This document shows, piece by piece, positions 1 to 24,709 of a DNA stretch of 64,000 bases. Within the stretch, counting starts at the first letter, position 1; the number at the start of each line of letters is the position of its first letter. The notes beneath the pieces were generated by a model. It was not told the origin of the DNA, did no database searches, and saw nothing but the letters and a program-made list of their open reading frames with translations. Both the position numbers and the translations under genes were made by a program. The stretch is from Hyphomicrobiales bacterium (GTDB taxonomy: Bacteria; Pseudomonadota; Alphaproteobacteria; Rhizobiales; Xanthobacteraceae). The DNA lies in NCBI GenBank assembly GCA_038230475.1, contig JBBRNE010000012.1, positions 4,413-68,412 of the forward strand, read 5' to 3'.

Positions 1-1
1 C

Positions 2-688
2 GACAAGCCCGAAGACCAATTCATGGCGGCAAGTGGCGTACGCCGTGCACTCGCGTCCTCAAAAGGTTCGGGTCGTTTCTGGTCGGGGTCATCGAGCGTC
101 GATGCGCTTGACGCGAAAGCCGATGCACTCGCGGTGCTGGCTGCCGCAGGCGCGCCGATGCAAGGATTGCAGATCGTCGCTGGCTCCGAAGTAAAAGATT
201 TTCCGGCGTGGCTGCATCCGGGACGCTCGGGAACGATTCAAATCGGTCCGCAAAACATTCTCGGATATTTCGGCGAGTTGCATCCGCGCGCACTGGAAGC
301 GCTCGGTGCCGAAGGCCCGTTGGTCGGGTTTGAAGTGATCCTCGAAAAAATTCCCGACGCCAAGGCCAAGCCGACGCGCGCGAAGTCTCTTCTGGAAATG
401 TCCGCGTTCCAGCCGGTATCACGCGATTTCGCCTTCATCGTGGATCGCAAGATCGCTGCAGGTGACATCGTTCGTGCCGCGCAGGGCGTGGACAAGAAAC
501 TGATTGCGAACGTGACCGTGTTTGACGTCTATGAAGGCAAAGGCATCGACGAGGATAAAAAATCCATCGCAATCGCCGTGACGCTGCAGCCGCGCGAAAA
601 AACCCTGACCGATCAGGAAATCGACGCGGTGGCAGCAAAGATCGTGGCCGACGTCACCAAAAAAACCGGCGGGACACTTCGCGGATAA
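2..688 (+). CDS. pheT: Phenylalanine--tRNA ligase beta subunit, C-terminal part (5' truncated by window edge)
   Basis: Frame open from the window start. LHPGRSG..GYFGELHP motif and C-terminal anticodon-binding domain (FQPVSRDFAF..VFDVYEG..KSIAIAVTLQPREKTLTD). Confidence 0.96.
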   Translation, partial: DKPEDQFMAASGVRRALASSKGSGRFWSGSSSVDALDAKADALAVLAAAGAPMQGLQIVAGSEVKDFPAWLHPGRSGTIQIGPQNILGYFGELHPRALEALGAEGPLVGFEVILEKIPDAKAKPTRAKSLLEMSAFQPVSRDFAFIVDRKIAAGDIVRAAQGVDKKLIANVTVFDVYEGKGIDEDKKSIAIAVTLQPREKTLTDQEIDAVAAKIVADVTKKTGGTLRG

Positions 689-20491: not shown

Positions 20492-20605
20492 ATCCGGCTC
20501 CGGGTGCGAATACCACCTTATTATAGTGCGCCCTTGCCGCTGCGGCCAGCGGCCCCTAAAAGCACCGCAGATGATGAGATAACCCCATTATTCTGGAGAA
20601 ACTCC

Positions 20606-21322
20606 ATGCGGCCAAGCCGTCGTGCGCCCGATGAACTGCGCTCCGTCACGCTGGAACGAAGTGTCGTCAAATATGCCGAAGGTTCCTGCATGGTGAAATT
20701 CGGCGACACCCATGTGCTGGTGACGGCAACTTTGGAAGAACGTTTGCCACCGTGGCTCAAGGGCCAAGGCCGCGGCTGGGTCACTGCCGAATATGGCATG
20801 TTGCCGCGCGCCACCCATGAGCGCATGCGTCGCGAATCCGCTGCCGGAAAACAAAGCGGACGCACTGTTGAAATTCAGCGGCTGATCGGGCGTTCTTTGC
20901 GGACCACCGTCGATCTTGTGGCGCTCGGTGAACGCCAGATCACGGTCGATTGCGATGTCATTCAGGCCGACGGTGGCACGCGCACCGCAAGTATCACCGG
21001 CGCGTGGGTTGCACTCGCGGATTGCCTGCAATGGATGAAGGCGCGCAACATGCTGAAAAACGAAAATGTTCTGCGCGACAACGTCGCCGCGATTTCCTGC
21101 GGCATTTATAACGGAACGCCGGTTTTGGATTTGGATTATGCCGAAGATTCCGAGGCCGAGACCGATGCGAACTTCGTCATGACCGGCGACGGGCGTATCG
21201 TCGAGGTGCAGGGCACCGCCGAGAAAACACCTTTCACGCAGGATGAGTTTTTGAAATTGATGGCACTGGCGCAAAAGGGCATCGGCCGCCTCGTGGAACT
21301 GCAAAAGCTGGCAGTCGCGTAA
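20606..21322 (+). CDS. rph: Ribonuclease PH
   Basis: [47 protein letters not shown]; GGAG RBS before ATG 20606. Confidence 0.97.
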
Positions 21323-21323
21323 G

Positions 21324-21405
21324 TGTCATTGCGAGCGACGCGAAGCAATCCAGAGGCTGCCAGGAAAAACTGGATTGCTTCGTCGCTGTGCTCCTCGCAA
21401 TGACG
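21324..21405. repeat. Family A repeat, copy 4 (inside the rph-rdgB operon)
   Basis: tgtcattgcgag..gaagcaatccag..ctggattgcttcg..ctcgcaatgacg immediately after the rph stop. Confidence 0.92.
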
Positions 21406-21435
21406 AATGCTTTGATTTTCGGCTACGGTTGATCC

Positions 21436-22071
21436 ATGTCCTCTCATCGCCGAATCACAGGCCGCCTCGTGATCGCAACCCACAATGCTGGCAAGCTTGC
21501 CGAGATGCGTGAACTGCTCGCGCCTTACGGCATCGATGCGGTGTCGGCGGCGGACTTGAAGATCGCCGAACCGGATGAGACGGGCAAAACTTTTCAGGCC
21601 AATGCGCGGATCAAGGCCATTGCCGCCGCGAACGCAACGCAGCTTCCGGCCTTCGCCGACGATTCCGGATTGTGTGTCGATGCACTCGATGGCGCGCCCG
21701 GAATTTATTCGGCGCGGTGGGCTGGCGAGACCAAAGATTTCAACACCGCGATGGCGCGCATCGAACGCCTGTTGCAGGAGCGCGACGCGATCGAGTCCGA
21801 GCAACGCAAGGCGCATTTCGTCTCGGCGTTATGCGTCGCGTGGCCGGACGGACATCTTGAAGACGTCGAGGCGCGCGTCGATGGCACGCTGATTTGGCCG
21901 CCGCGCGGCGATGCAGGCTTCGGTTACGATCCGGCGTTTCTTCCCGACGGACATGCGCGTACCTTCGGCGAAATGACGAGCCTCGAAAAGCACGGTCTGC
22001 CGCCGTTAGGATTGGGATTGTCGCATCGCGCAAAAGCCTTCGTGAAGCTGGCGGAGATGTGCCTGAAATGA
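21436..22071 (+). CDS. rdgB: Non-canonical purine NTP pyrophosphatase
   Basis: [37 protein letters not shown]. Confidence 0.95.
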
Positions 22072-22154
22072 GCGCGCACATTTCAGATGTTGCTTTTCAC
22101 CTCTCCCGCGCGCGGGGGAGGCCGGCGCAATTGCGCCGGGAGGGGGCGCGATGA
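22068..22154 (+). CDS. Putative 28-aa ORF linking rdgB and hemW by two ATGA overlaps
   Basis: ATG 22068 overlaps the rdgB TGA; TGA 22152-22154 overlaps the hemW ATG 22151. Mostly encoded by a GC-rich palindromic element. Confidence 0.35.
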
Positions 22155-22196
22155 CGGCCCCCCTCCCCACCCCGCCCCCGCTTACGGGGGAGGGAG
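22100..22196. repeat. Multi-hairpin G/C-tract palindromic element (family C) overlapping the hemW 5' end
   Basis: Hairpins cctctccc..gggggagg, perfect ccggcgcaattgcgccgg, gaggggg..ccccctc and cccccg-ctta-cggggg. Encodes PLPTPPPLTGEG in HemW. Confidence 0.8.
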
Positions 22197-23338
22197 ATAA
22201 GGCCTTCGGCGTCTACGTCCACTGGCCGTTTTGCCTTTCGAAATGCCCATATTGCGATTTCAATTCCCACGTCCGCCATCAAGCCGTCGACGAGGACCGT
22301 TTCGCGGGCGCATTCGAGCGTGAGATCGCAACCACTGCGGCACGTATACCTCAACGTGAAGTGACGTCGATTTTTCTCGGCGGCGGCACGCCGTCATTGA
22401 TGAAGCCTGAAACCGTCGGCAAAATTTTGGACTCCATCGGCAAGCATTGGAGCGTTGCGAAGGACGTCGAGGTCACGCTGGAAGCCAATCCGACCAGCGT
22501 CGAAGCCACCCGCTTCAAAGGCTATCGCGCAGCGGGCGTCAATCGTGTGTCGCTCGGCGTGCAGGCGCTCGATGATGCGTCTCTCAAATCGCTCGGAAGA
22601 CTTCACACGGCGCGCGAAGCGCTCGATGCGGTGGCGATAGCGCGTAGCGCCTTCGACCGTTATTCGTTCGATCTGATTTACGCGCGGCCCGACCAGACAC
22701 CGCAGATGTGGGCGCAAGAACTCAAACTCGCGATTTCCGAAGCTGCCGAACATCTGTCGCTGTATCAACTCACGATTGAACCCGAGACGCCATTTTACGG
22801 ATTGCATGCCGCAGGCAAGCTCGCGATTCCCGATGAAGCTGTTGCGCGCGAGTTGTACGACGCGACGCAGGATGTTTGCGCGGCTCAAGGTTTGCCGTCA
22901 TACGAGATTTCCAATCACGCGCGACCGGGTGCCGAGTGCAAACACAATCTGGTTTATTGGCGCGGGCAGGAATATGCCGGCATCGGTCCCGGCGCGCATG
23001 GACGGATTGACATCGATGGCGCGCGTCACGCCATTGCGACTGAAAAGCGTCCTGAAACATGGCTGATGCGGGTTGAGGCACAAGGCCACGGCGTCACAAC
23101 GGATGAACTGCTCAACAGCGAAGAACGTGCGGATGAATATTTGCTGATGGGATTGCGTCTTGCGGAAGGCATCGACCCGAAGCGCTACGAAATGCTGTCG
23201 GGTCGCGCGCTCGATCCAAGGCGTATTGCGATTCTGACCGATGAAGGCGCGATCGTCGTCGATGCCAATGGCCGCGTGCGCGTAACGGCGGAGGGATTTC
23301 CGGTGCTCGACGCGGTGGTCGCAGATTTGGCGGCGTGA
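22151..23338 (+). CDS. hemW: Radical SAM heme chaperone HemW
   Basis: YVHWPFCLSKCPYCDFNSH (CxxxCxxC), FLGGGTPS, TLEANP, HLSLYQLTIE, YEISNHA; follows rdgB as usual. Confidence 0.93.
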   Translation: MTAPLPTPPPLTGEGDKAFGVYVHWPFCLSKCPYCDFNSHVRHQAVDEDRFAGAFEREIATTAARIPQREVTSIFLGGGTPSLMKPETVGKILDSIGKHWSVAKDVEVTLEANPTSVEATRFKGYRAAGVNRVSLGVQALDDASLKSLGRLHTAREALDAVAIARSAFDRYSFDLIYARPDQTPQMWAQELKLAISEAAEHLSLYQLTIEPETPFYGLHAAGKLAIPDEAVARELYDATQDVCAAQGLPSYEISNHARPGAECKHNLVYWRGQEYAGIGPGAHGRIDIDGARHAIATEKRPETWLMRVEAQGHGVTTDELLNSEERADEYLLMGLRLAEGIDPKRYEMLSGRALDPRRIAILTDEGAIVVDANGRVRVTAEGFPVLDAVVADLAA

Positions 23339-23347
23339 CCCCTCGCT

Positions 23348-23470
23348 CGTCATTGCGAAGGACAACTATCACTTTCCGCGATGTCATCGCCGCGCGTGTC
23401 CCGGCGATCCCGATTAACGAAGCACAATGCCCAATAGATCGAGATGGCCGGGACGAACCCGGCCATGACA
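23348..23470. repeat. Composite repeat: family A left stub plus GTCAT..CCGGC..GCCGG..ATGAC element (family D)
   Basis: cgtcattgcgaag stub at 23348, then gtcatcgccgcgcgtgtcccggcgatc..gatggccgggacgaacccggccatgac; between convergent genes. Confidence 0.75.
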
Positions 23471-23488
23471 ATAAATTATATTGTCGGT

Positions 23489-24709
23489 TTAAGCCCCGAA
23501 ACTCTTTGGCGATCCAACAACCGGCTGCGCGCCACCGGCTGCGACTTTCATCACCGCAAGTCCGCGCTCGTTGGTGCCGTCGGTGCGAAAGCGAAAAAGA
23601 CCGTCAATACCCGCAAAACCCGACGCGTTGGTGAGAACGTCCTGCGAAAAACGTTGTGCGCCTTGCGTACGCGCGAGTGCTGCGACCAATGCGACGGCAT
23701 CGTAAGCAAGCGTCGCGGTGCGAACGGGATCCGATCCATACTTGGCACGATAGCGCGCCGCAAAACTTTTGAAGCCCGACGGATCGGGTGCCGCATAAAA
23801 TCCGCCCTGCAGATTCGGATCAGCATAGACGCGCGGCGAATCCCACAATCCAGTGCCGAGCAGTTGCAGGCGCTTGAGGTTAGCGCCGTTCGCAGCCAAA
23901 GTTTGCGCGACATTCACAACGGCGTCGCCGTCGTCCGCAAGCATCAGCGCATCGGCTGTGCCAAGCGCCGATGCAACATTGCGGGCGACAGTCTGCGTCT
24001 GCGCCGGGTCGGTCGAATATTTCTCGAACGCGACAACGCGTCCGCCCTTGCGCGCGACCGCTTGCTTGAATGCAGCCTCAACGACATTGCCGTAGGCGTT
24101 CTCCGGCAGCAGTGCTGCGAAGGATCGTTTACCGGTGCTTGCCGAATAATCGACGATGCGGTTGACGTCGGACTCCGGCAGAAAGCTCAGGAGATACACA
24201 CCGCGACCGGCGACGCTGGAGTCGGTTGAAAACGCAATCACCGAGATACCGCGCGCGCGCGCGACCGCTGCGGTTGCGGGGACCGACAATCCGAACAGCG
24301 GGCCGAGAATGATTTCCGCGCCTTCGCCGAGAGCTTGCTGTGCGCCCTGTTGCGCACCTTGCGCCGAACCCGCATCGTCCTTGATCAGAAGCTGAATGTT
24401 CGGCGACTGGAATTCTGCAAGTGCGAGTTCGGCTGCATTGCGCATCGACTGTGCGGCGACGCCGGCATTGCCGGATGCCGACAGCGGCAACAGCATCGCG
24501 ACTTTGACCTGACCGGAACCAACGGCGGTGGGCTGTTCCTGCGGACCGGCAGGTGCAGCCGGTGCGGGCTCAAGCCCCGCGGAGGGTCCGCCAAACGATG
24601 ACGGAAGACTGGCGCAGCTTGCGACCAGCGGTGCACCGAGAATCAGTCCGAGCGCGCTTCGGCGGGTTGCCCCGCGAAGTTGCGTTTTCGGATTGAACGG
24701 GTCGACCAT
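23489..24709 (-). CDS. LpoA/LppC-like periplasmic-binding-protein-fold lipoprotein (putative PBP activator)
   Basis: TRRSALG twin-Arg plus LVASC lipobox; KVAMLLPLS, ILGPLF, TLAYDAV, GFAGIDGLFRF; next to rsmI/yraN. Confidence 0.8.
   Translation of the reverse strand: MVDPFNPKTQLRGATRRSALGLILGAPLVASCASLPSSFGGPSAGLEPAPAAPAGPQEQPTAVGSGQVKVAMLLPLSASGNAGVAAQSMRNAAELALAEFQSPNIQLLIKDDAGSAQGAQQGAQQALGEGAEIILGPLFGLSVPATAAVARARGISVIAFSTDSSVAGRGVYLLSFLPESDVNRIVDYSASTGKRSFAALLPENAYGNVVEAAFKQAVARKGGRVVAFEKYSTDPAQTQTVARNVASALGTADALMLADDGDAVVNVAQTLAANGANLKRLQLLGTGLWDSPRVYADPNLQGGFYAAPDPSGFKSFAARYRAKYGSDPVRTATLAYDAVALVAALARTQGAQRFSQDVLTNASGFAGIDGLFRFRTDGTNERGLAVMKVAAGGAQPVVGSPKSFGA

What the first reader, a model, noticed from the sequence alone, without database searches (positions are those of the whole stretch)
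22068..22200. Palindromic element inserted at the hemW start creates a translational relay: rdgB, 28-aa ORF, hemW
Seen: the ATG overlapping the rdgB stop (22068) opens [28 protein letters not shown], which stops at 22154 overlapping a second ATG (22151) that starts HemW in another frame. A four-hairpin GC element (22100-22196) encodes most of the short ORF and the Pro-rich HemW N-terminus ([14 protein letters not shown]) before the conserved AFGVYVHWPFC. No clear SD precedes 22151. Inference: the ancestral coupled start was 22068; the element inserted into the CDS out of frame, and expression was rescued by a new ATGA junction inside it. This would be repeat domestication that preserves coupling.
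Basis: partly seen in the sequence, partly recalled or inferred. Interest (0 to 1): 0.7.

Follow-up and report, generated by a model that had tools for sequence, protein, structure and literature searches.

The report
Hairpin repeat bridged by relay ORF
A 105-base hairpin-forming repeat sits inside the first codons of the heme-chaperone gene hemW, and a 28-codon "relay" reading frame, kept in at least nine related genomes, appears to pass ribosomes from rdgB across the repeat to a new hemW start. It is a well-supported new example of a trick already proposed for mycobacterial MIRU repeats.

Summary
rdgB (21436-22071) ends in ATGA. The ATG at 22068 opens a 28-aa ORF whose TGA (22152-54) overlaps ATG 22151, the only usable hemW start. 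A four-hairpin element (about 22093-22198) encodes both the short ORF and HemW's Pro-rich N-terminus.

One sub-claim is wrong. A good SD (GGAGG, 22139-43, 7 nt upstream) exists, but it is locked in the 5' arm of hairpin 3, with the ATG in the loop.

- **Ancestral state:** all 33 same-genus genomes without an insert start hemW on the rdgB stop (MSADAKQAFGVY...), so 22068 is the ancestral start. The insert adds 113 nt, which shifts the frame.
- **Conservation:** seven genus genomes and two from other genera carry the element. In all nine the short ORF ends within -8 to +2 nt of the hemW start, in four sequence versions (ATGA, TTGA, TAGccATG, TTGACTGA). In the seven genus copies every length change is 3 nt.
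- **Selection:** stems are 94-98% conserved and loops 31-74%. hemW dN/dS is 0.05-0.09.
- **Mechanism:** the most likely one is termination-reinitiation plus ribosome unwinding of the SD hairpin. This is inferred, not shown.
- **Precedents:** MIRUs, RPEs and bicistronic designs.

Verdict: a real feature, a new variant of a known kind, of moderate interest.

The parts
21436..22071 (+). rdgB (non-canonical purine NTP pyrophosphatase). Its stop TGA at 22069-71 overlaps the relay ORF's start.
   Evidence: ORF. Pfam Ham1p_like 3.5e-58. NCBIfam TIGR00042 166 bits against a cut-off of 145.
22053..22056 (+). GGAG inside the rdgB 3' end, 11 nt upstream of ATG 22068. This is the likely SD of the ancestral hemW start, which is now the relay ORF start.
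   Evidence: Read from the sequence. GCGGAGAT(G/C)TGCCT is conserved in all relatives, but the stretch also encodes RdgB residues, so its function as an SD is inferred.
22063..22086 (+). Small palindrome CTGAAATGAGCG/CGCACATTTCAG that encloses the rdgB stop and relay start. It is specific to this genome.
   Evidence: Inverted repeat I4. Also listed as a weak terminator-like site, where one site was found and 1.3 were expected from shuffles.
22068..22154 (+). Relay ORF of 28 codons ([28 protein letters not shown]). It starts at the ancestral hemW ATG (ATGA with the rdgB stop), reads through hairpins 1 and 2 and the 5' arm of hairpin 3, and stops at a TGA that overlaps the hemW ATG.
   Evidence: Equivalent ORFs of 28-30 codons occur in G013, G024, G011, G009, G050 and G048, and further ones in G390 and G160.
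22093..22198 (.). Four-hairpin mosaic palindromic repeat. Consensus: TTCTTCA-hp1-hp2-GGGAGGGGG-variable loop-CCCCCTCCCC-AA-hp4-GGGAGA. The outer 22 nt on each side are also complementary to each other, like terminal inverted repeats.
   Evidence: Alignment A1 of 19 copies. RNAalifold gives 32 pairs, 4 of them with compensatory changes. Stems are 93-97% conserved and loops 23-34% across the 19 copies.
22100..22121 (+). Hairpin 1 (CCTCTCCCGC GC GCGGGGGAGG).
   Evidence: Palindrome I3. The stem is 98% identical among the seven hemW copies.
22122..22139 (+). Hairpin 2 (CCGGCGCAA/TTGCGCCGG). This stem covaries within the family.
   Evidence: I10. Compensatory pairs at alignment columns 35-47, 36-46 and 37-45.
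22138..22168 (+). Hairpin 3. The 5' arm GGGAGGGGG (22138-46) holds the SD GGAGG (22139-43). The 12-nt loop CGCGATGACGGC (22147-58) holds the TGA/ATG overlap. The 3' arm is CCCCCTCCC(C) (22159-68).
   Evidence: I9. Free energy -24.4 kcal/mol. SD unpaired probability 0.0 and start codon 1.0. The same layout is found in all seven genus copies.
22151..22154 (+). ATGA, where the hemW start (22151-53) overlaps the relay ORF stop (22152-54).
   Evidence: ATGA is found in 5 of 7 genus copies, TTGA in G050 and TAGccATG in G048.
22154..22198 (+). Element-encoded HemW N-terminal extension [15 protein letters not shown] (3' arm of hairpin 3 plus hairpin 4), read in the family's nearly stop-free 'PLP..AGEG' frame.
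   Evidence: Frame statistics: 2 stops in 19 copies against about 12 expected. The same peptide type (SPLPNPPPQAGEG) occurs in relatives.
22171..22194 (+). Hairpin 4 (CCCGCCCCCG CTTA CGGGGGAGGG).
   Evidence: I11. The stem is 94% identical among the hemW copies.
22151..23338 (+). hemW (radical SAM heme chaperone), 395 aa. The conserved core begins at AFGVYVHWPFC (22202 onward).
   Evidence: Pfam Radical_SAM plus HemN_C. NCBIfam TIGR00539 HemW 297.9 bits against a cut-off of 205.4, with the match starting at residue 21. dN/dS is 0.05-0.09.

Best explanation
A mobile or once-mobile 105-120 nt palindromic repeat of Xanthobacteraceae inserted into roughly codons 4-9 of hemW. It separated the gene body from its ancestral start, which overlaps the rdgB stop (ATGA).

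Proposed sequence of events on the mRNA:
1. Ribosomes that finish rdgB, or that initiate at the old start, translate a 28-codon junk ORF through hairpins 1, 2 and the 5' arm of hairpin 3.
2. This melts the roughly -24 kcal/mol hairpin 3, which otherwise locks the SD (GGAGG).
3. They terminate at a UGA in the hairpin loop that overlaps a new AUG (AUGA, -4 spacing).
4. They reinitiate there, or let a fresh 30S bind the now-exposed SD.
5. The product is a HemW whose first 15 or so residues ([15 protein letters not shown]) are encoded by the 3' half of the repeat.

Shown: the anatomy, the ancestral state, the conservation of the arrangement, and purifying selection on hemW.

Inferred: that the short ORF is translated and that HemW synthesis depends on it.
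For: **Anatomy.** ATG 22151 is the only possible hemW start.

**Ancestral state.** All 33 element-less genus genomes have the hemW start overlapping the rdgB stop. The same holds in other families.

**Relay conserved.** It is found in 7 of the 42 genus junctions read, and in G390 and G160 of two other genera. The short ORF always begins at the old start and ends -8 to +2 nt from the hemW start. Four different sequence solutions occur: ATGA, TTGA, TAGccATG and TTGACTGA.

**Frame kept.** The distance from old start to new start is 83, 83, 89, 89, 89, 89 and 92 nt. The three variable segments differ only by 3 nt (32/35, 18/21, 11/14), which implies at least four indel events, all multiples of 3. 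Without the stop, the short-ORF frame would run about 70 codons into hemW across its start.

**SD.** It lies 6-10 nt upstream of the start in all copies and is always fully paired. Hairpin 3 has a free energy of -22 to -25 kcal/mol (-13 in G048). The start codon lies in the loop and is predicted unpaired in four of the seven genus copies (its third base pairs in G011 and G009; in G050 the codon is mostly paired).

**hemW stays functional.** dN/dS is 0.05-0.09 in pairs with and without the element, at dS 0.3-1.06.

**Stems under constraint.** Stems are 94-98% identical among the hemW copies. Loops and the 5' flank are 31-74% identical.

**Old start codon kept.** It persists although it needs rare codons in rdgB. 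The last codon ends in A (overall NNA share 11%) or uses CTT (13% of Leu codons).

Against: - There is no expression data of any kind. No Ribo-seq or proteomics exists for this uncultured-type genome.
- The seven genus copies probably descend from one insertion, because they share the hp2 loop TCTT and the loop GCGATGA. Part of the 'conservation' is therefore inheritance.
- The stems are equally conserved at other loci such as polA and the ligase gene. Stem conservation may therefore reflect a family-wide DNA-level constraint or gene conversion rather than a role in hemW translation.
- The old start and its SD lie in rdgB coding sequence, so their retention is partly forced.
- In G160 an in-frame TTG at -11 could read through the whole element without any relay. 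In G062 other in-frame ATGs exist.
- A ribosome terminating in the loop must reinitiate next to a very stable refolding hairpin. Strong structure just downstream of a stop was reported to lower coupling (PMC12548453).
Confidence: 0.7

Rival explanations
1. hemW initiates independently. It is translated from ATG 22151 by ordinary 30S binding to the GGAGG SD whenever hairpin 3 breathes or is opened by a helicase, RNase or temperature. The short ORF is an incidental leftover of the old start. Its stop near the ATG only prevents out-of-frame ribosomes from running over the start.
For: A canonical SD at canonical spacing exists in every copy. The start codon lies in the loop. The element brings SD-like GGGAGGGGG wherever it lands. 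A stop near the start would also be selected under this model, simply to avoid occlusion.
Against: The SD is predicted 100% paired in a hairpin of -22 to -25 kcal/mol in six of seven copies. The old start codon is retained in all nine genomes. The exact -4 overlap is kept or re-created in different sequence forms. This precision is not needed just to stop stray ribosomes.
Confidence: 0.17
2. hemW has decayed. The insertion inactivated it, and the apparent relay is a chance arrangement in a gene on its way to loss.
For: HemW is dispensable in some bacteria (own knowledge). The distribution of the element is patchy.
Against: hemW is intact in all element-bearing genomes. dN/dS is 0.05-0.09, the same as in element-less pairs, at dS up to 1.06. 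No second hemW exists in the genome: the only other hit has E = 4.9e-4. The frame relation is kept through at least four indels.
Confidence: 0.03
3. Assembly or homopolymer error. A miscounted G or C run puts 22068 artificially out of frame. In reality the old start reads straight through the element, giving an RPE-like in-frame insertion.
For: The element has runs of 5-6 G or C. The hemW frame is open through the whole element back to 22067. In G160 an in-frame upstream TTG does exist. The same family sits in frame in polA.
Against: Seven independent genus assemblies, several of them closed or long-contig, show the same frame offset (83, 89 or 92 nt, each 2 mod 3) with different loop sequences. 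A recurrent identical error is implausible. Reads could not be checked.
Confidence: 0.04
4. Programmed -1 frameshift. Ribosomes starting at 22068 slip -1 inside the G-rich SD-like tract, stimulated by the downstream hairpins. The result is one long HemW with a 27-residue longer N-terminus.
For: hemW is in the -1 frame relative to the short ORF. An internal SD and strong downstream structure are classical stimulators. The hemW frame is stop-free through the element.
Against: There is no X XXY YYZ slippery heptamer in the window or the relatives. The conserved feature is the stop/start overlap, which a frameshift does not need. The G050 CTT-TGA-C motif would shift +1, into the wrong frame.
Confidence: 0.03

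Closest known systems
MIRUs (mycobacterial interspersed repetitive units; Supply et al. 1997, as described in PMC12548453 and PMC3184786)
   Same: Both are short GC-rich interspersed repeats with internal inverted repeats, found inside operons at a gene start. [quoted passage not shown] Both are interpreted as letting the insertion occur with minimal effect on expression.
   Different: - Different phylum. Sequence relatedness to MIRUs was not tested.
- This is a single copy, not a tandem VNTR.
- It lies inside the CDS rather than at the start codon.
- The original start now drives the relay ORF. The downstream gene uses a new start and SD located in a hairpin of the repeat, and it gains a repeat-encoded N-terminus.
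Rickettsia palindromic elements (RPE; Ogata et al. 2000, listed in PMC3184786), and REPs inside genes (Di Nocera et al. 2013, PMC3733652)
   Same: Both are palindromic repeats of about 100-150 nt that sit in protein-coding genes and are translated as extra peptide. The family here also lies in frame in polA and in an ATP-dependent DNA ligase. This matches the remark that intragenic REPs are frequent in replication and repair genes.
   Different: At hemW the insertion is out of frame and only the 3' half is translated as part of the protein. There is no GTAG or CGTC tag, and no RAYT transposase in this genome.
Leader-peptide coupling: synthetic bicistronic designs (PMC12548453 ref. 78; PMC13255528), and plasmid R1 tap-repA (own knowledge)
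   Same: A short non-functional ORF carries the downstream gene's SD in its 3' end. It terminates on or next to the downstream start. Ribosomal helicase activity removes an inhibitory structure around the RBS.
   Different: Here the short ORF is itself coupled (ATGA) to a real upstream gene, giving a two-step relay. It arose from a repeat insertion rather than by design or as a replication-control device. Dependence has not been measured.
Neisseria REP2 repeats (PMC3184786)
   Same: The repeat supplies an RBS and an ATG that become the translational start of the adjacent ORF.
   Different: REP2 also carries a promoter and sits upstream of genes. It has no relay ORF and no hairpin-sequestered SD.

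Membership tests
MIRU-like relay repeat | Short interspersed repeat present in several copies per genome | tested here: met
   Matches in 28 of 48 genus genomes, with up to 15 hits per genome. 19 full copies were aligned. The own genome has only 2 copies.
MIRU-like relay repeat | ORF within the repeat overlaps the upstream gene's stop and is coupled at about -4 nt to the downstream gene's start | tested here: met
   ATGA at both ends in the window. The same or an equivalent arrangement occurs in eight more genomes.
MIRU-like relay repeat | Sequence homology to mycobacterial MIRUs, with tandem (VNTR) arrangement | tested here: not met
   The tandem arrangement was tested and is absent: a single unit with no tandem copies. 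Sequence homology to MIRUs was not tested, because no MIRU sequence was fetched. The element is therefore not filed as a MIRU. It only works like one.
RPE-type protein-coding palindrome | Palindromic repeat translated in frame as part of a conserved protein | tested here: met
   The 3' half encodes HemW residues 2-16. The whole element is in frame in the PolA linker and in a DNA ligase. One frame is nearly stop-free, with 2 stops against about 12 expected.
RPE-type protein-coding palindrome | Homology to RPE-1..8 of Rickettsia | not tested
   No RPE sequences were compared.
REP / REPIN (RAYT-associated) | 20-40 nt palindromes tagged by GTAG or CGTC, with a RAYT (Y1 transposase) in the genome | tested here: not met
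   No GTAG or CGTC at the hairpin ends. PF01797 is absent from the own genome, while the control genomes were positive.
MITE | Terminal inverted repeats | tested here: met
   The outer 22 nt pair with each other in the alifold consensus: alignment columns 9-30 with 99-120, nearly invariant.
MITE | Target-site duplication, and a parent IS with matching terminal inverted repeats | tested here: inconclusive
   About 16-22 nt of hemW codons 2-9 are duplicated on both sides of the element in G009, G011 and G050 (p <= 0.001 to 0.009). No flank duplication was detectable at 14 other loci. A parent IS was not searched for.
Translational coupling by unfolding and reinitiation | Stop of the upstream ORF within a few nt of the downstream start; the downstream RBS is sequestered in structure that the upstream ORF crosses | tested here: met
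Translational coupling by unfolding and reinitiation | Downstream translation depends on upstream translation | not testable with these tools
   This needs reporters, Ribo-seq or proteomics.
HemW (TIGR00539) | Scores above the curated equivalog cut-off; Radical_SAM plus HemN_C domains | tested here: met
   297.9 bits against a cut-off of 205.4. Pfam domains.

The most novel reading that the evidence does not exclude
The four-hairpin repeat is a portable 'operon-safe' cassette: a mobile element family adapted to live inside genes and gene junctions. On this reading its design features are:
- one stop-free frame that can be translated as a harmless Pro/Gly-rich linker;
- a built-in SD locked in a hairpin;
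- a variable loop that captures or evolves a start/stop overlap.

Any insertion near a coupled gene start would then be converted into a two-step ribosome relay.

At hemW the locked SD would be more than tolerated. It would make HemW synthesis strictly proportional to rdgB translation, or make it conditional (for example on temperature or a helicase). That would explain why the stems stay 94-98% identical while synonymous sites are saturated. It would also explain why the same junction carries this element, or its remnants, in roughly ten genera.
Probability: 0.15. Interest if true: 0.75.

Novelty: new variant of a known kind. Interest (0 to 1): 0.5.

Why it matters
The locus shows, with unusually rich comparative evidence, how a bacterium keeps a gene expressed after a selfish hairpin repeat lands inside its first codons.

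The old coupled start is recycled to drive a junk ORF that hands ribosomes to a new start inside the repeat.

The family preserves a whole series of outcomes at one locus:
- the intact relay;
- in-frame fusion of the 3' or the 5' half of the repeat;
- fusion of rdgB to the relay frame;
- decayed remnants;
- clean absence.

This makes the locus a natural experiment on translational coupling, on the cost of structured RNA at start sites, and on the decay and loss of repeats inside genes.

For annotation, gene callers will mis-start or truncate such genes and will miss the relay ORF.

It also extends the MIRU principle from Actinobacteria to Alphaproteobacteria, which supports the idea that relay ORFs are a general way of tolerating repeats inside operons.

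Tried and rejected
- **Raw reads and RNA-seq:** Cross-genome conservation was used instead.
- **Known RNA families:** Rfam search of 21300-23600 at E <= 1 gave no hit.
- **Terminator or promoter role:** only one weak terminator-like site at 22063-86 and no promoter-like site, which is no more than the shuffles give.
- **RAYT/REP system:** no Y1 transposase in the genome and no GTAG/CGTC tags. Rejected.
- **prfB-like +1 frameshift:** G050 has SD-CA-CTT-TGA-C, but the +1 frame is not hemW's. Rejected.
- **-1 frameshift:** no slippery heptamer found.
- **Loop ATGA as a duplicated copy of the old rdgB/hemW junction** (prompted by earlier scan notes):
  - Only the long G050 loop resembles the ancestral N-terminal codons (p = 0.007, uncorrected).
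  - The other loops are too short to test. Left open.
- **Target duplications as a family trait:** clear at hemW in G009, G011 and G050, but none at 14 other loci.
- **Single insertion or several:**
  - The rdgB+hemW tree needs at least 6 gains or losses for the seven full copies.
  - The hemW copies share private features (hp2 loop TCTT, loop GCGATGA).
  - I could not separate an ancient insertion with repeated excision between the flanking direct repeats from lateral spread by recombination or from re-insertion.
- **The 660-712-aa open frames through the element in L114, L117, L119 and L124:** they look like antisense shadows of a GC-rich gene and were not counted as coding.
- **Look-alikes by sequence in earlier scan notes:** none found.
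Full report
**1. Observation.**
- The window carries rph (20603-21322), rdgB (21436-22071) and hemW (22151-23338) on the + strand. Pfam and NCBIfam confirm the identities: Ham1p_like/TIGR00042 for rdgB; Radical_SAM + HemN_C and TIGR00539 at 297.9 bits (cut-off 205.4) for hemW; RNase PH for rph.
- The rdgB stop TGA (22069-71) overlaps ATG 22068. This ATG opens [28 protein letters not shown].
- The stop of that ORF, TGA 22152-54, overlaps ATG 22151. In the hemW frame, ATG 22151 is the first and only ATG/GTG/TTG between the in-frame stop at 22064-66 and the conserved AFGVYVHWPFC.
- Four GC hairpins are present: 22100-21, 22122-39, 22138-68 and 22171-94.
- As RNA, 22050-22215 folds at -93.8 kcal/mol, with z = -4.6 against dinucleotide shuffles.
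GGGAGGGGG at 22138-46 places GGAGG 7 nt before the ATG, so there is an SD.
- That SD is the 5' arm of hairpin 3 (-24.4 kcal/mol). Its predicted unpaired probability is 0.0, while the AUG sits unpaired in the 12-nt loop.

**2. The element is a repeat family.**
- The own genome (3.18 Mb, 19 contigs, 57.9% GC) has only one other copy, at C3:208650-208770.
- Across the 48 species genomes of the genus, 28 have matches. Full-length copies number up to a dozen per genome.
- An alignment of 19 copies gives the consensus TTCTTCA-CCTCTCCCGC-TTGC-GCGGGGGAGG-TCGGCGCGC..GCGCGCCGG-GAGGGGG-(variable loop, 11-30 nt)-CCCCCTCCCC-AA-CCCTCCCCCGC-AAGC-GCGGGGGAGGG-AGA.
- The two outer 22-mers are also complementary to each other, like terminal inverted repeats. 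Hairpin 2 shows compensatory changes.
- The 5' part (hairpins 1 and 2) and the 3' part (3' arm of hairpin 3 plus hairpin 4) also occur alone.
- There is no Rfam hit, no GTAG/CGTC tag, and no RAYT transposase in this genome.
- One reading frame (PLPLAGEVG...PLPNPPPQAGEG) is nearly stop-free: 2 stops in 19 copies against about 12 expected.
- Consistent with that, the other copy in this genome lies in frame in the PolA linker between the 5'-nuclease and 3'-5' exonuclease domains. That insertion is shared with G062, G009 and G050.
- In G050 a further copy lies in frame in an ATP-dependent DNA ligase.
- Intragenic REPs in replication and repair genes have been noted before (PMC3733652).

**3. Ancestral state.**
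- I read the rdgB-hemW junction in 42 genomes of the genus.
- In all 33 without a large insert, the hemW start overlaps the end of rdgB: ATG at -1 (ATGA), ATG/TTG at -8, or TTG at -11. The N-termini are short, for example MSADAKQAFGVYVHWPFC.
- More distant Hyphomicrobiales show the same tight junction.
- ATG 22068 is therefore the ancestral coupled start.
- In the window the distance from it to the GCC of AFG is 134 nt, against 21 nt in relatives. The net gain of 113 nt is 2 mod 3, so the insertion is in the CDS and out of frame.
- In G009, G011 and G050, hemW codons 2-9 are recognisably present on both sides of the element, a duplication of about 16-22 nt (p <= 0.001 to 0.009).
- No such duplication is detectable at 14 other loci.

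**4. The relay is conserved.**

Seven genus genomes carry the full element at this junction. In every one the short ORF starts at the old start codon and stops on or next to the hemW start.

| Genome | Stop/start arrangement |
|---|---|
| G000, G013, G024, G011, G009 | ATGA |
| G050 | TTGA |
| G048 | TAGccATG |

- A family-wide search and targeted fetches add two more cases. G390, from another genus, has TTGACTGA, an 8-nt overlap. G160, from a third genus, has TTGA at the rdgB stop followed by ATGA, although an in-frame TTG at -11 could also read through there.
- G062 carries remnants of this element plus a different repeat. The end of that repeat...CCCGGCCATGAC, again gives an ATGA reached by an ORF from the old TTG. 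Other in-frame ATGs make that case ambiguous.
- The distance from old start to new start is 83, 83, 89, 89, 89, 89 and 92 nt. It is the sum of a 5' flank (32 or 35), hairpin 1 (22), hairpin 2 (18 or 21) and the hairpin 3 arm-to-start segment (11 or 14).
- Every length difference is therefore exactly 3 nt, which implies at least four events. Copies at other loci have hairpin 2 lengths of 17, 18, 19 and 21, so the family itself imposes no 3-nt rule.
- The SD lies 6-10 nt from the start and is fully paired in all seven copies.
- If the stop were missing, the short-ORF frame would run about 70 codons into hemW across its start.

**5. Selection.**
- hemW has dN/dS of 0.05-0.09 in pairs with and without the element, at dS of 0.3-1.06. 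It is therefore expressed and functional.
- Among the seven hemW copies, stems are 94-98% identical (hairpin 2: 85%, with covariation). Loops are 31-74% identical and the 5' flank 58%.
- The G000/G013 pair, with dS of 1.06, has identical stems but diverged loops and flank.
- Stems are similarly conserved across loci. This constraint may therefore belong to the family (DNA-level, or gene conversion) rather than to hemW expression.
- The old start codon is retained everywhere although it needs an A-ending last codon or CTT in rdgB. NNA codons make up 11% and CTT 13% of Leu codons in this genome. This is suggestive, but partly explained by inheritance.

**6. History.**
- On an rdgB+hemW tree, the seven full copies need at least six gains or losses.
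- Yet the hemW copies share private characters absent from copies elsewhere: the hairpin 2 loop TCTT, the GGGAGGGGG arm and the loop GCGATGA. This points to one origin.
- Truncated derivatives occur in other genera:
  - the 3' half fused in frame to the old start (L031, L034, L154);
  - rdgB fused to the relay frame, so that its new stop overlaps ATGAGCCCCCTCCCC (L036, L151);
  - the 5' half in frame (L156);
  - decayed remnants (L157, L158).
- My preferred reading, at roughly 55%, is an old insertion followed by repeated loss. Exact excision between the roughly 20-nt flanking direct repeats is a plausible route.
- Lateral spread by recombination (about 25%) and re-insertion at a hot spot (about 20%) are not excluded.
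- The origin of the loop start is unresolved. The G050 loop resembles the ancestral N-terminal codons (p = 0.007, uncorrected). The other loops are too short to test.

**7. Mechanism.**
- Two models of translational coupling are established: RNA unfolding and reinitiation or scanning. Both are most efficient at -4/-1 spacing (PMC12548453; PMC6728339).
- The anatomy here fits both at once. The relay ORF crosses the 5' arm that locks the SD, and it terminates in the loop on the start codon.
- Synthetic bicistronic designs use exactly this layout to neutralise structure at the RBS (PMC12548453 ref. 78; PMC13255528).
- I put 0.7 on the relay being required for normal HemW synthesis and 0.17 on independent initiation. 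Small weights go to sequencing error, gene decay and frameshifting.

**8. Comparison and novelty.**
- The principle is already in the literature for MIRUs. [quoted passage not shown]
- Earlier notes of this scan report relay ORFs across unrelated hairpin repeats in several phyla. I used them as leads only.
- What is different here:
  - the position is inside the CDS;
  - the old start is reused as the relay start;
  - the repeat donates the SD, the start and an N-terminal peptide;
  - the SD is sequestered in a hairpin;
  - one locus preserves a series of evolutionary outcomes.
- I file it as a new variant of a known kind, with interest 0.5.

**9. Limits.**
- The tree rests on two genes.
- Energies and accessibilities are predictions.

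Noticed in passing
own genome outside the window: genome.fa C3:208650-208770 (polA ORF C3:207615-210704): The only other copy of the four-hairpin element in this genome lies in frame in DNA polymerase I. It encodes SPLPLAGEVGAQSATGGGLFQSRNTPSLPSPASGGGS in the linker between the 5'-nuclease and 3'-5' exonuclease domains. The same polA insertion occurs in G062 (L118), G009 (L123) and G050 (L120).
   Followed up: partly
L127:1501-1619 (G050): A copy of the element in reverse orientation lies in frame in an ATP-dependent DNA ligase (DNA_ligase_A_M plus DNA_ligase_A_C), around residues 114-150.
   Followed up: partly
window 21322-21406: The rph-rdgB spacer is a long inverted repeat (GTCATTGCGAGCGACGCGAAGCAATCCAG...CTGGATTGCTTCGTCG...CTCGCAATGAC). 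It belongs to an abundant family, with about 44 BLAST hits in this genome.
   Followed up: partly
window 23339-23475; L148 (G062): Another repeat family follows hemW, with about 34 hits in the genome. In G062 a member of this family sits at the rdgB-hemW junction, and its end ...CCCGGCCATGAC provides an ATGA that is reached by an ORF from the old TTG start. This may be a second, independent relay.
   Followed up: partly
L014 (G005), L037, L040: between the rdgB stop and hemW: A different, AT-rich insert of about 110 nt occupies the same junction in three genomes. It has the conserved motifs GATCGTTAAAATTGTAATCAA and TGCTTAACATG. It could be a promoter or a regulatory RNA.
   Followed up: no
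L159, L160, L161 (other genera): A shared motif GAAACTGCCATATGCTC lies 20-30 nt upstream of the hemW start, where rdgB and hemW are uncoupled.
   Followed up: no
L004 (G010), about 50 nt before the HWPFC codons: An element-less junction carries a 15-nt tandem duplication GCCTTC-CATACTGAA-GCCTTC exactly at the insertion site. It may be an excision footprint.
   Followed up: no
L133 (G050), hairpin 3 loop: GGGAGGGGG-CA-CTT-TGA-C closely mimics the prfB (RF2) +1 frameshift site, with an SD, CUU and UGA-C. However, the +1 frame is not the hemW frame.
   Followed up: partly
L002, L017, L018 (G013, G011, G009): In the genomes with a TTG-type start, rdgB and hemW are in the same frame through the whole element and are separated only by the rdgB TGA.
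   Followed up: no
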